This document shows positions 3,540 to 4,616 of a stretch of DNA of 17,475 nucleotides, piece by piece. Source of the stretch: a virus. The notes under the pieces were generated by a model that was not told the DNA's origin, did no database searches, and saw only the letters and a program-made list of their open reading frames with translations. The stretch is from IMG/VR virus record IMGVR_UViG_3300018080_008418. One strand, written 5' to 3'. The position numbers and the translations under genes were made by a program. The stretch's first letter is position 1, and each line of letters begins with the position of its first letter.

Positions 3540-4231
3540 ACACGAACTCGATCTTTGACAATTTAACACTGTCCCGTTGTCGCCGGGACATTAAACCAAC
3601 GTACCCATGGCTGGGTGGTTGGGCTAATCTTTCCTTCGGGAAGGATGGGTATAGGCGAAAGGCCGAGCGCACGGGGGAGGTTCGTCCCTCCTACCGACGA
3701 CGACGAGGCTGTGGGATAAGCGCCTGGAAGCGTGAAGCTCGCTAGTAACTGATGGTGTGAGACCCTGTTCCAGCAGGGGAATACTACCTGAAAGATTCCG
3801 GATTTGCCAGTTTATCGGGGAACGGCCATTGACGTTGATGTCTTGAAGAAAGACGTTATCCTAACTAAGTTTCCTGGGAAGTGGCTAAGGCTTCGGCCAA
3901 GGCAACAAAATTGGCGTGTGGGATGTACTGAAGTGCCTACGCTCGACGGGGAAACCTGTCGGGGCTGCCCGAAAGGGGTCAGGCGGATCACCTCCCAGGG
4001 GTGCAAAGTTTGACGGGTTAGCGAAGAGTCAGCGACGGTTGGCTTGGAACGAGCCTAGAAAGTCACTCACACTACTGCTTGCTGTTGGGCGGTGGAGACA
4101 CCAACGACAGGGGTGAAGACAGTGAAGGGTCTTAAACGCCCGTGTACAGACCAGAAGGAGCGAAAGCATTGATCTCTGGGGTCACTGTCGTCAGGAATAG
4201 ATCTTGTGCTAATGCCTGACATTTTTATTTT

Positions 4232-4318
4232 CGGCGGGGTGGCCATAGTGACAGGGCTACCCAATCTCGGATTCGTCTGGGAAAGGGAGATAGCAGGTTT
4301 GATTCCTGCACCCGCCGC
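4232..4318 (+). other. tRNA-like element (acceptor stem plus T-arm), not a canonical tRNA.
   Basis: A 7-bp acceptor pairing CGGCGGG (4232-4238) with CCCGCCG (4311-4317). A T-arm GCAGG-TTTGATT-CCTGC at 4293-4309. GGATTCGTCTGGG at 4269-4281 resembles the D-loop-like 5' element of tmRNA and tRNA-like structures. No convincing anticodon arm, and the T-loop has U instead of C at position 56. Confidence 0.3.
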
Positions 4319-4537
4319 TTGGTCATGGACGGTGGAGCCGCTATGTGGGAGCCCTTAGACGCATTGAGGGCGCAATACCACAACACCACGCAAGTGGGAG
4401 GCTTAGAAGCTGGTCCAGATGGTTGTAGAGCCCGTCGCCTGGGCTTGGGGAAGGACGACGATGACGGTCGGATCTTCTTGACTTATACTACGGGATGGCG
4501 ACCCGCAACCAAGCTGGGTTTCCATGGCCACAACTAA

Positions 4538-4616
4538 CACCGGAGATCCGTAGGACTGTCCATTTCTCAGTCTGCTCCTGATAATCAGGTGGTCGCCCTC
4601 CGGTGCTTTTTTGTTT
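4538..4616 (+). terminator. Putative compound rho-independent terminator.
   Basis: An 8-bp long-range stem pairs CACCGGAG (4538-4545) with CTCCGGTG (4598-4605). It encloses an inner hairpin CCTGA-TAA-TCAGG at 4577-4589 and is followed by TTTTTTGTTT at 4607-4616. Confidence 0.4.

What the first reader, a model, noticed from the sequence alone, without database searches (positions are those of the whole stretch)
3547..4616. About 1.07 kb ORF-free, hairpin-dense region with its own promoter and terminator: candidate large structured ncRNA
In a genome that otherwise packs genes with overlapping stops and starts, a 1.1 kb stretch with no ORF above 72 aa and no RBS-ATG pair stands out. It is full of short GC-clamped hairpins with UUCG/GNRA-type tetraloops, the hallmark of folded RNAs. 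It begins just after a sigma-70-like promoter and ends at a compound hairpin followed by a U-run. Large ornate RNAs of the GOLLD, ROOL and HEARO classes are typically phage-borne and lie near tRNA genes, and this window holds about 13 tRNAs. No conserved RNase P elements were seen. No obvious tmRNA tag reading frame was seen either. A tRNA-like module sits near its 3' end.
Basis: partly seen in the sequence, partly recalled or inferred. Interest (0 to 1): 0.75.

Follow-up and report, generated by a model that had tools for sequence, protein, structure and literature searches.

The report
New large structured phage RNA
The gene-free stretch holds a roughly 690-base, intricately folded non-coding RNA fused to a tRNA look-alike with no anticodon; it is conserved in a few huge-phage contigs, matches no catalogued RNA family, and most resembles the enigmatic GOLLD and ROOL phage RNAs.

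Summary

**The unit.** Window 3547-4320 is a conserved non-coding RNA gene on the + strand. Window 4321-4616 is lineage-specific trailer that ends in a terminator.

**Conservation.** I found five further lineages, all in metagenomic phage contigs, at 63-78% nucleotide identity. That is at least as conserved as the neighbouring ThiF gene.

**Structure.**
- 126 nested base pairs in 22 helices are 96.6% paired across sequences, against 35-45% for slid controls.
- 70 pairs show compensatory changes, against 9-12 in the controls.
- Two pseudoknots also covary.
- 124 G-U cells against 4 A-C cells fix the strand as +.
- There is no coding signal.

**Flanks.** Sigma-70-like promoters sit directly upstream in every lineage with 5' sequence. 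A conserved CAUUUUU linker leads into one to three cloverleaf tRNA mimics. In these, a capped hairpin replaces the anticodon arm. Their 3' trailer (N73-C-U) matches that of the phage's own tRNAs.

**Novelty.** Rfam 15 gives no hit for GOLLD, ROOL, HEARO, tmRNA, RNase P or introns. It is a new family of the "large ornate phage RNA beside tRNAs" kind. Its function is unknown.

The parts
3511..3539 (+). Sigma-70-like promoter: -35 TTGCAT (3511-3516), 17-nt spacer, -10 TACAAT (3534-3539). The inferred transcription start is about 3546-3548.
   Evidence: Read directly from the sequence. It scores 8/12, below the scan threshold. The aligned position in homologues carries TTGACA-16-TATAAT (12/12, L012), TTTACT-16-TATAAT (10/12, L009) and TTGACG-16-TAGAAT (10/12, L014) on the RNA strand. 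The start site is inferred, not measured.
3547..3569 (+). 5' leader with the conserved UCUUUGACAAUUU (3552-3564).
   Evidence: It is conserved in window, L012, L014, L026 and L010 but absent in L009. UGACAA is complementary to the invariant H1 loop UUGUCG. That pairing cannot be tested because neither side varies.
3570..3915 (+). 5' domain, the more variable half. It holds helices H1 to H11. H1 is 3570-3575/3585-3590, with the invariant loop UUGUCGCC. H8 is a long-range helix, 3806-3813/3908-3915. Several helix tips vary in length between lineages.
   Evidence: RNAalifold and pair counts on alignment A4. 22-30% of columns are invariant. Most helices carry changes on both sides.
3916..4232 (+). 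Conserved 3' core: helices H12 to H23, ending in the ACAUUUUU linker.
- H12 (3916-3929/4061-4072) closes a multi-helix junction.
- Conserved motifs are GAAGUGCCUAC (3930-3940), CGAAAGGGG, AGCGACGGUU (4031-4040) and ACAGGGG.
- The 3' hairpin H23 (4190-4195/4215-4220) has the conserved loop AAUAGAUCUUGUGCUAA.
- The linker ACAUUUUU lies at 4219-4226.
   Evidence: 42-56% of columns are invariant and motif spacing is constant. Covariation in every helix. A covariance model of 3914-4117 scores 198-225 bits in all six lineages.
3873..3999 (+). Pseudoknot PK-B: 3873-3878 (CCUGGG) pairs with 3994-3999 (CCCAGG) in the loop of H16.
   Evidence: One pair changes from C-G to U-A in both L012 and L009. Cells are 97% paired.
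4144..4209 (+). Pseudoknot PK-A: 4144-4149 (GUACAG) pairs with 4204-4209 (UUGUGC) inside the H23 loop.
   Evidence: There are two independent compensatory changes, A-U to G-C in L012 and A-U to C-G in L021, inside otherwise invariant sequence. All cells are paired, against 34-55% for slid controls.
4233..4320 (+). tRNA-like module without an anticodon.
- Acceptor stem: 4233-4239/4310-4316.
- U8 at 4240.
- D arm: 4242-4245/4254-4257.
- T arm: 4293-4297/4305-4309, with the canonical T-loop UUUGAUU.
- The anticodon arm is replaced by a long hairpin (4259-4289) capped by UUCG (4272-4275).
- G73 at 4317, followed by CUU.
   Evidence: Weak tRNA-Sec-like hit of 21 bits. ARAGORN calls nothing here. 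Cloverleaf folds. Compensatory changes in the acceptor, D and T stems across eight copies. The N73-C-U trailer matches all 12 tRNA genes of the window.
4321..4537 (+). Lineage-specific 3' extension. It is either a non-conserved RNA trailer or a small orphan ORF (ATG 4325 or 4343, to 4537).
   Evidence: It is absent from L012 and L009, where the next gene or a terminator follows the tRNA-like module. Folding z-score is -0.87. The strain variant L006 has a 42-nt in-frame indel and keeps the frame open. No homologue exists outside this phage and there is no Pfam hit. This part is unresolved.
4538..4616 (+). Intrinsic-terminator-like compound hairpin: CACCGGAG (4538-4545) pairs with CUCCGGUG (4598-4605) around an inner hairpin, followed by C, U6 (4607-4612), G and UUU (4614-4616).
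   Evidence: Read from the sequence and the fold. The scan tool does not flag it because the loop exceeds 8 nt.

Best explanation
Window 3547-4320 is a stand-alone gene for a large, multi-domain, pseudoknotted non-coding RNA of about 690 nt. It is joined covalently to an anticodon-less tRNA mimic and is carried by a small set of huge-phage lineages.

**Shown**
- The RNA is conserved, non-coding and specific to the + strand.
- It folds into at least 22 helices and 2 pseudoknots, supported by compensatory changes.
- Every lineage has a promoter-like site directly upstream.
- In every lineage whose 3' end is in the data (window, L012, L009, L014, L021), the conserved CAUUUUU linker leads straight into one to three tRNA-like cloverleaves.

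**Inferred**
1. The host sigma-70 RNA polymerase transcribes the unit, probably early, as one precursor.
2. RNase P cuts at the 5' side of each tRNA-like module. This frees the large RNA with a ...CAUUUUU 3' end, much as tRNA-like elements define the 3' ends of other long RNAs.
3. The modules mature through the same 3' pathway as the phage's own tRNAs, because they share the N73-C-U trailer. Some copies in other lineages encode ACCA.
4. The large RNA then acts without a dedicated protein partner, since no neighbouring gene is shared between lineages. It would be a self-folding scaffold in the manner of GOLLD and ROOL, possibly a homo-oligomer with the tRNA-like units tethered or released next to it.
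For: **Homologues and conservation**
- Homologues: L012, L009, L026, L010, L014 and L021.
- The RNA is at least as conserved at the nucleotide level as the adjacent ThiF gene.
- L014 and L021 share the RNA with the window; L014 shares none of the neighbouring proteins tested, and the short L021 contig holds no other gene to compare.

**Structure**
- 126 pairs are 96.6% paired, against 35-45% for slid controls.
- 70 pairs change on both sides, against 9-12 in the controls.
- 0 of 500 shuffles reach the observed values.
- Pseudoknots and the 3' hairpin are 97.8% paired, against 34-55%.
- 124 G-U cells against 4 A-C cells fix the + strand.

**Not coding**
- Mismatches are even across the three codon phases.
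- Indels are mostly not multiples of three.
- No stop-free stretch exceeds 92 aa.

**Transcription unit and tRNA-like modules**
- Promoter-like sites sit at the same position in L012 (12/12), L009 (10/12) and L014 (10/12).
- The modules fold as cloverleaves and covary in the acceptor, D and T stems.
- All 12 tRNA genes of the window and the module carry C-U after the discriminator.

**Analogy to GOLLD and ROOL (PMC12286853)**
- They are phage-borne and lie near tRNA islands.
- GOLLD has a conserved 3' region and a variable 5' region.
- tRNAs sometimes sit inside GOLLD.
- Palindromic loops form symmetric kissing contacts between copies.
Against: - There are no expression data, so the transcript ends, RNase P processing and abundance are all inferred.
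- Only six lineages are available, and three of them are truncated by contig ends. Covariation is strong but comes from a shallow tree, and the nested structure was derived from the same alignment.
- Folding energy is not better than for shuffled sequence.
- The window's own promoter matches only 8 of 12 positions.
- The H23 hairpin plus U-run could instead be a terminator. The tRNA-like modules would then be made only by read-through.
- The oligomer idea rests on one conserved loop palindrome: AGAUCU in four lineages and AGCU in L021. This is a single substitution and the pairing cannot be tested.
Confidence: 0.8

Rival explanations
1. The unit is an anti-defence RNA. The anticodon-less tRNA mimics would act as decoys or sponges for host factors that recognise the acceptor end and elbow of tRNAs, such as nucleases that attack tRNA 3' tails or acceptor stems. 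The large RNA would act as a sponge or scaffold in the same role. This concerns function and does not exclude the structural description above.
For: - The phage invests heavily in tRNAs: about 12 in the window, and arrays of 20 in relatives.
- The mimics keep the acceptor, D and T arms under selection but have lost the anticodon loop.
- The unit sits among early-type genes behind a host-type promoter.
- In L009 the next gene matches Pfam Tad5, whose name suggests an anti-defence protein (the role is inferred from the name and was not checked).
- Defence nucleases that cleave tRNA tails are documented (abstract of PMC12851939, listed).
Against: - There is no direct evidence.
- No defence or counter-defence gene is consistently linked across lineages.
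- Decoy function would not obviously need a 690-nt pseudoknotted RNA.
Confidence: 0.15
2. The unit is a cis-regulatory leader (5' UTR, riboswitch or attenuator) for the downstream gene at 4624-5391.
For: - In L012 the tRNA-like module is followed within about 50 nt by a ribosome-binding site and a homologue of the downstream gene at 56% identity.
- No terminator was detected there.
Against: - The downstream gene differs between lineages: a Tad5-like gene in L009 and an unrelated 134-aa ORF in L014.
- In the window a terminator, and in L009 a terminator-like hairpin read by eye from the aligned sequence, separates the RNA from the next gene.
- Homologues of the downstream protein occur elsewhere without the RNA.
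- A leader of 690 nt with 22 helices would be far larger than leaders usually are (my own knowledge).
Confidence: 0.04
3. The region is decayed sequence: a degenerate tRNA array or pseudogenised coding DNA with chance hairpins.
For: - Relatives L001 and L002 carry a tRNA array a few genes downstream of ThiF.
- Folding energy in the region is not unusual.
- tRNA-like pieces are present.
Against: - Conservation at 63-78% identity, equal to or above that of neighbouring genes.
- Compensatory changes in 70 pairs.
- Invariant motifs at constant spacing across phages, one of which (L014) shares none of the window proteins tested.
Confidence: 0.01
4. It is a self-splicing intron, a mobile ribozyme, or the guide RNA of a mobile element (group I or II intron, HEARO/IscB-type RNA, retron RNA).
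For: Its size and structural complexity would fit. The strain variant L006 shows a recombination junction inside the 3' part.
Against: - No Rfam intron, HEARO or other hit at E up to 10 in five lineages.
- No interrupted host gene or exon-like flanks.
- No reverse transcriptase, IscB, TnpB or homing-endonuclease gene was seen among the neighbouring genes that were scanned.
- It has its own promoter.
Confidence: 0.03
5. This concerns 4321-4537 only: that part encodes a small orphan protein of 64-70 aa, so the truly non-coding stretch is about 770 nt rather than 1.07 kb.
For: - A gene caller calls 4343-4537, with GGAG five nucleotides upstream of the ATG.
- The strain variant L006 differs by a 42-nt in-frame indel and keeps the frame open from ATG 4325.
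Against: - No homologue among 5.8 billion clustered proteins except itself, and no Pfam hit.
- The ATG at 4343 is missing in L006.
- The three substitutions near the junction, translated by hand, all change amino acids.
- The segment is absent in L012 and L009.
Confidence: 0.25

Closest known systems
[quoted passage not shown]
   Same: - Both are very large structured RNAs encoded by phages or prophages beside tRNA genes.
[quoted passage not shown]
- tRNAs can be covalently part of the GOLLD transcript.
- Both have multiple pseudoknots or kissing contacts supported by covariation.
- Neither has a consistently associated protein.
- Both have a loop palindrome of the GAUC/AGCU type, as in the symmetric kissing loops reported for GOLLD L21a and OLE L9.3.
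   Different: - No sequence or structure match to the Rfam GOLLD model in any of five lineages, even at E up to 10.
- The attached elements here are not real tRNAs. They are mimics lacking an anticodon loop, placed at the 3' end after a conserved U-rich linker.
- This RNA is somewhat shorter, about 690 nt against more than 800.
- It is much rarer.
- Its quaternary structure is unknown.
ROOL RNA (Rumen-Originating, Ornate, Large)
   Same: Both are phage-borne, lie near tRNA islands, measure about 600-700 nt, have many helices and pseudoknots, and have no known protein partner (PMC12286853).
   Different: No match to the Rfam ROOL model. The motifs and helix order differ, and this RNA carries fused tRNA-like modules.
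tRNA-like 3' modules used as processing signals or tRNA mimics (MALAT1-mascRNA, tmRNA tRNA-like domain, bacterial YrlA Y RNA). This comparison rests on my own knowledge.
   Same: All have a cloverleaf or L-shape mimic that keeps the acceptor and T arms but cannot decode. In MALAT1, RNase P cleavage at the mimic creates the 3' end of the long RNA, which is the processing route inferred here.
   Different: - MALAT1 is eukaryotic.
- The tmRNA tRNA-like domain is formed by the 5' and 3' ends of a single RNA and carries a tag reading frame. ARAGORN finds no tmRNA here.
- In YrlA the free ends emerge from the anticodon-stem side, whereas here the acceptor stem has the free ends.
- No Rfam hit to any of them.
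Phage tRNA arrays
   Same: They share genomic neighbourhood and orientation. The N73-C-U 3' trailer is the same. The T-loop is canonical and the acceptor stem has 7 bp.
   Different: ARAGORN and the Rfam tRNA model at gathering threshold do not call the modules. The anticodon arm is a 6-13 bp hairpin with a 3-5 nt cap, so decoding is impossible.

Membership tests
GOLLD RNA (Rfam) | Match to the family covariance model at or near the gathering score | tested here: not met
   There is no GOLLD hit at gathering threshold in the window. There is none at E up to 10 in window 3400-4750 or in L012, L021, L026 and L022.
GOLLD RNA (Rfam) | Phage or prophage location next to tRNA genes, with a conserved 3' region and a variable 5' region | tested here: met
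   The contigs are huge-phage-like. tRNAs lie in the window. Invariant columns make up 42-56% of the 3' core and 22-30% of the 5' domain. These features are contextual and do not establish membership.
GOLLD / ROOL | Assembly into protein-free homo-oligomeric cages | not testable with these tools
   The only lead is a conserved palindrome in the H23 loop, AGAUCU, which becomes AGCU in L021.
ROOL RNA (Rfam) | Match to the family covariance model | tested here: not met
   No hit.
HEARO / IscB-associated RNA | Match to the covariance model and an adjacent IscB or HNH nuclease ORF | tested here: not met
   No Rfam hit. The neighbours are ThiF, a lipoprotein-like ORF, an unknown 255-aa ORF and a sigma factor.
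tRNA (the 4233-4317 module) | Cloverleaf with a 7-bp acceptor stem, a D arm and a T arm with a TΨC-type loop | tested here: met
   Folds. Stems pair in eight copies with compensatory changes. T-loop UUUGAUU or UUCGAUA in the window, L006 and L012; the L009, L014 and L021 copies have diverged T-loops.
tRNA (the 4233-4317 module) | 5-bp anticodon stem with a 7-nt anticodon loop, and recognition by tRNA finders | tested here: not met
   The arm is a long hairpin capped by UUCG. ARAGORN calls none in the window, L006, L012 or L014, and none at the module's position in L009. The Rfam tRNA-Sec hit scores 21 bits against a gathering score of 47.
tmRNA | tRNA-like domain formed by the 5' and 3' ends, plus a tag reading frame | tested here: not met
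   ARAGORN finds no tmRNA. No Rfam tmRNA hit. The tRNA-like module is contiguous.
RNase P RNA, group I and group II introns | Match to the Rfam covariance models | tested here: not met
   No hits at E up to 10.
Protein-coding gene | Conserved open frame, three-base periodicity of substitutions, indels in multiples of three | tested here: not met
   Mismatches by phase are 63/76/58, 90/82/76 and 93/89/92. Between 0 of 3 and 6 of 18 indels per pairwise comparison are multiples of three. The longest stop-free stretch is 92 aa or less.

The most novel reading that the evidence does not exclude
This would be a third, unrelated class of phage RNA that assembles without protein into a symmetric multimer or cage, as GOLLD and ROOL do. 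The distinctive feature would be an array of anticodon-less tRNA mimics attached through a conserved U-rich linker. The mimics would be either displayed cargo or RNase P-released decoys that divert host factors acting on tRNA acceptor ends.
Probability: 0.25. Interest if true: 0.9.

Novelty: new variant of a known kind. Interest (0 to 1): 0.8.

Why it matters
Very few large structured RNAs of bacteria and phages lack a known function; GOLLD, ROOL, OLE and raiA are the main examples. The first three were recently shown to form protein-free multimers (PMC12286853). An independent family with the same genomic habits (phage-borne, beside tRNAs, conserved 3' core) would show that the association between large RNAs and tRNAs in phages is a recurring solution and not an accident of one lineage.

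Here the tRNA partner has been stripped of its anticodon while its acceptor, D and T arms stay under selection. That points to what matters in the association: recognition by tRNA-processing or tRNA-binding machinery, not decoding. It makes the question testable with RNase P, RNase Z, CCA-adding enzyme and defence nucleases.

The RNA is also the most conserved element shared between two of these phages whose neighbouring proteins tested show no match.

Tried and rejected
**Searches that found nothing**
- Rfam at gathering threshold and at E up to 10, on the window and on four homologue loci: nothing except a weak tRNA-Sec-like hit on the 3' module.
- blastn against 50,697 deposited phage genomes with three different family members as query: no match. 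No cultured phage in that set carries it.
- GTDB species-representative genomes, by motif pair: seven hits, all chance. Two were the same repeated sequence within one MAG.
- IMG/VR: only one contig (L014) was found with four different patterns. The other loci brought in by single-motif patterns were chance matches.
- The covariance model of the 3' core, run over 250 kb of fetched loci, found only the six known copies. More distant ThiF-bearing relatives (L001-L003, L025; ThiF at 64% identity or less) therefore lack it.

**Approaches that did not help**
- Anchoring on the downstream 255-aa protein failed. Its homologues sit in unrelated contexts without the RNA.
- Folding-energy z-scores do not distinguish the region from coding DNA, so they were dropped as evidence.

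**Ideas rejected or set aside**
- An 11-nt identity to the 3' end of 16S rRNA (GGAUCACCUCC, 3985-3995) is not conserved in homologues. It lies in covarying helix H16, so I rejected it as coincidence.
- Three possible pairings involve only invariant sequence and cannot be tested: the H1 loop (UUGUCGCC) with the 5' leader, the H1 loop with GCGAC in AGCGACGGUU, and GACGGU with GCUGUU.
- Literature searches found no description of this RNA. One possibly relevant 2026 preprint on mining non-coding elements could not be opened.
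Full report
**1. The observation**

The window is phage-like. It holds two sigma-factor-like genes, a JAB/ThiF pair, an AAA ATPase, and about 12 tRNA genes all on the + strand. Its ThiF protein has relatives on IMG/VR contigs of 373-390 kb. Its ATPase matches a 595-kb uncultured phage best. So it comes from a huge-phage lineage.

Between the stop of a proline-rich lipoprotein-like ORF (3481) and the ATG at 4624, no ORF exceeds 72 aa.
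- UUCG- and GAAA-capped hairpins;
- a promoter-like site, TTGCAT-17-TACAAT, at 3511-3539;
- a compound hairpin (4538-4605) followed by U6;
- a tRNA-like element at 4233-4317.

"Hairpin-dense" is not above chance by energy. Sliding 150-nt windows give a mean z of -0.92 inside the region on the + strand and -0.96 in flanking coding sequence. The + strand does fold much better than the - strand, at -409.9 against -339.3 kcal/mol.

**2. Known families**

Rfam 15 (4,227 families) gives nothing in the region at gathering threshold. With permissive filters and E up to 10, the only relevant hit is a 21-bit tRNA-Sec-like match at 4233-4316. There is no GOLLD, ROOL, HEARO, tmRNA, RNase P or intron hit. 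ARAGORN finds no tRNA or tmRNA there. blastn against 50,697 deposited phage genomes finds nothing.

**3. Homologues**

Anchoring on the downstream protein failed. Anchoring on ThiF worked. Proteins 74-81% identical to the window's ThiF lie on contigs with an uncalled gap at the same place. Those gaps are homologous to window 3550-4320.

| Locus | Extent of the homologous RNA | Nucleotide identity to the window |
|---|---|---|
| L012 | full length | 73% over 797 nt |
| L009 | full length | 71% |
| L026 | 5' 590 nt | 78% |
| L010 / L011 | 5' 190 nt | 72% |

Motifs from that alignment were used as DNA patterns. They brought in two more lineages that lack ThiF nearby: L014 (an 84.5-kb IMG/VR contig, identical to L022 and L024) and L021. 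L014 shares none of the eleven window proteins tested, yet its RNA is about 63-70% identical.

In the ThiF lineages the RNA is more conserved at the DNA level than the ThiF gene:

| Locus | RNA identity | ThiF gene identity |
|---|---|---|
| L012 | 72.9% | 67.7% |
| L009 | 70.7% | 65.1% |
| L026 | 77.6% | 75.0% |

Relatives whose ThiF is 64% identical or less (L001-L003, L025) lack the RNA. A motif scan of GTDB representative genomes gave only chance hits. The family is real but rare, and it is so far known only from metagenomes.

**4. It is a structured RNA, not a gene or junk**

On the seven-sequence alignment A4, RNAalifold predicts 126 pairs in 22 helices. Counted independently:

| Measure | Observed | Slid controls (1-3 columns) |
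|---|---|---|
| Cells forming standard pairs | 96.6% | 35-45% |
| Pairs changed on both sides | 70 | 9-12 |
| Covariation score | 0.412 | 0.05-0.09 |

None of 500 column shuffles reaches any observed measure.

A scan for further complementary column runs found two pseudoknots:
- PK-A pairs 4144-4149 (GUACAG) with 4204-4209 (UUGUGC) in the loop of the 3' hairpin. It carries two independent compensatory changes inside otherwise invariant sequence.
- PK-B pairs 3873-3878 (CCUGGG) with 3994-3999 (CCCAGG). One pair changes from C-G to U-A in two lineages.

With the 3' hairpin H23 included, these pairings are 97.8% paired against 34-55% for slid controls.

Across all pairs there are 124 G-U cells and 4 A-C cells, so the RNA is read from the + strand.

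Coding is excluded:
- substitutions are spread evenly over the three phases;
- indels are mostly not multiples of three;
- no stop-free stretch exceeds 92 aa in any frame of any member.

One caveat applies. The tree has only six lineages, and the nested structure was derived from the same alignment, which flatters the "cells paired" figure. The both-sides counts and the pseudoknots inside invariant blocks are not explained by that.

**5. Anatomy in window coordinates**

- **Promoter**, 3511-3539. The aligned position in L012, L009 and L014 scores 12/12, 10/12 and 10/12 on the RNA strand.
- **Leader**, 3547-3569, with the conserved UCUUUGACAAUUU. It is absent in L009.
- **5' domain**, 3570-3915. 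It holds H1 to H11. H1 has an invariant loop, and several helix tips vary in length. 22-30% of columns are invariant.
- **3' core**, 3916-4232. It holds H12 to H23, and 42-56% of columns are invariant. Motif spacing is constant to within 1-2 nt between lineages.
  - Its motifs are GAAGUGCCUAC, CGAAAGGGG, AGCGACGGUU and ACAGGGG.
  - H23 (4190-4195/4215-4220) carries the loop AAUAGAUCUUGUGCUAA.
  - The core ends in ACAUUUUU, which is conserved in all five lineages with 3' data.
- **tRNA-like module**, 4233-4317, followed by CUU.

A covariance model of 3914-4117 scores 198-225 bits on the six members. It finds nothing else in 250 kb of fetched loci.

**6. The tRNA-like modules**

The window has one module. 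L014 and L021 each have three in tandem right after CAUUUUU.

The modules fold as cloverleaves with a 7-bp acceptor stem, a D arm and a T arm. The anticodon arm is replaced by a hairpin of variable length, 6-13 bp with a 3-5 nt cap, which is UUCG in the window. They therefore cannot decode.

The acceptor, D and T stems pair in all eight copies examined, with many compensatory changes. This includes the comparison between the window and a strain variant, L006, which is 78% identical over the module.

Two copies, L014-1 and L021-1, end in ACCA. The others have N73 followed by C-U. All 12 genuine tRNA genes in the window also have C-U after the discriminator rather than CCA. I infer that the modules pass through the same 3' maturation route as the phage's tRNAs.

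**7. The last 300 nt (4321-4616)**

This part is absent from L012, where a ribosome-binding site and the next gene follow within about 50 nt. It is also absent from L009, where a terminator-like hairpin follows. Its fold is not unusual, with z = -0.87.

It contains an ORF (ATG 4325 or 4343, to 4537) that a gene caller accepted. The strain variant differs there by a 42-nt in-frame indel. The ORF has no homologue outside this phage among 5.8 billion clustered proteins and no Pfam hit.

I leave it unresolved: it is either a trailer or a small orphan gene.

**8. How it most likely works**

*Shown.* This is an independent, conserved, + strand, highly structured RNA with promoter-like sites upstream and tRNA mimics directly downstream.

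*Inferred.*
1. The host sigma-70 polymerase makes one precursor.
2. RNase P cuts 5' of each mimic and leaves the large RNA ending in CAUUUUU. Alternatively, H23 plus the U-run terminates part of the transcripts at the same place.
3. The mimics are trimmed like tRNAs.
4. The large RNA works without a dedicated protein, because no neighbouring gene is shared between lineages.

The closest analogues are GOLLD and ROOL. Both are phage-borne and lie near tRNA islands. GOLLD has a conserved 3' region, a variable 5' region and sometimes tRNAs inside it. Both form protein-free cages held by kissing loops and A-minor contacts (PMC12286853).

One lead in that direction is the H23 loop. It carries the palindrome AGAUCU in four lineages. 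In L021 a single substitution leaves a different palindrome, AGCU. That paper reports switches between the palindromes GGCC, GAUC and AGCU as the signature of symmetric inter-molecular kissing loops. With a single event this is a hint, not evidence.

A non-exclusive alternative is an anti-defence role. The mimics would act as decoys for factors that recognise the acceptor end and elbow of tRNAs.

**9. Membership and novelty**

The RNA behaves like GOLLD or ROOL in its genomics. It fails the defining test for both, which is a match to the family model. It likewise fails for HEARO, tmRNA, RNase P and introns. The 3' modules meet the cloverleaf criteria of tRNA but fail the anticodon-arm criterion.

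I found no description of it in the searchable literature. One possibly relevant 2026 preprint could not be opened.

I file it as a new family within the loosely defined kind "large ornate phage RNAs associated with tRNAs". The fused anticodon-less tRNA mimics are its distinguishing feature.

**10. Verdict**

My confidence that this is a genuine structured ncRNA gene is about 0.95. My confidence in the full statement including the processing model is about 0.8. My confidence in a GOLLD- or ROOL-like multimeric mode of action is about 0.25. Interest is 0.8.

Noticed in passing
window 5392-5701: A second, shorter intergenic region, between the 255-aa ORF and the sigma-like ORF, folds far better than chance: -132 kcal/mol, z = -6.7. 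It contains a strong terminator-like hairpin, GAAAGCCCACCGGCGAUGCCGGUGGGCUUUC. 45 nt (5562-5606) are 87% identical to L012:2829-2869.
   Followed up: partly
window 6294-6321: A perfect 28-nt palindrome, GATGCTCGGCGATATATCGCCGAGCATC, lies inside ORF 6258-6632. It could be a protein-binding site or a recombination site.
   Followed up: no
window 10285-16608 (all tRNA genes): None of the 12 tRNA genes encodes CCA. In every one the discriminator is followed by C-T. This is a uniform 3' trailer signature shared with the tRNA-like module.
   Followed up: partly
window 11793-11887, 16415-16509, 16514-16608: Three tRNA genes are unusually long, at about 95 nt. One is reported by ARAGORN with a 4-nt anticodon (ttgc). 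One is found only by Rfam. They may have long variable arms or insertions.
   Followed up: no
L006:1-140 versus window 4234-4440: A strain variant of the same phage is 100% identical downstream of about 4440. Upstream it is only 78% identical, and a hairpin has been replaced (52 nt against 24 nt). This indicates a recombination junction inside the 3' part of the RNA locus.
   Followed up: partly
L014:5373-5646 (- strand) and L021:511-812: Three tandem anticodon-less tRNA mimics follow the large RNA in each of these lineages. Their D-loops (AGAGUA) and T-loops (for example CUUAACGAA) have both diverged from the canonical tRNA forms, which suggests co-evolution of the elbow contact.
   Followed up: partly
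window 1538-2852, and L009, L010, L025: A JAB-domain gene and a ThiF (E1-like) gene are linked in this phage lineage, and the pair recurs in L010 and L025. L014 has a weak Prok-E2_D hit. This looks like a phage ubiquitin-like conjugation module.
   Followed up: no
L009:11869-12432: The gene just downstream of the RNA in L009 matches Pfam Tad5 (PF25190). Judging by the family name it may be an anti-defence protein, which would suggest that the RNA lies in an early or counter-defence region.
   Followed up: no
window 2897-3481: The ORF upstream of the RNA has a lipoprotein-type signal (MKRLFVLLAVCCLLVYVGC) followed by PAPEDP repeats. On the opposite strand these repeats create a spurious 254-aa ORF (2908-3672) that runs into the RNA's 5' end.
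   Followed up: no
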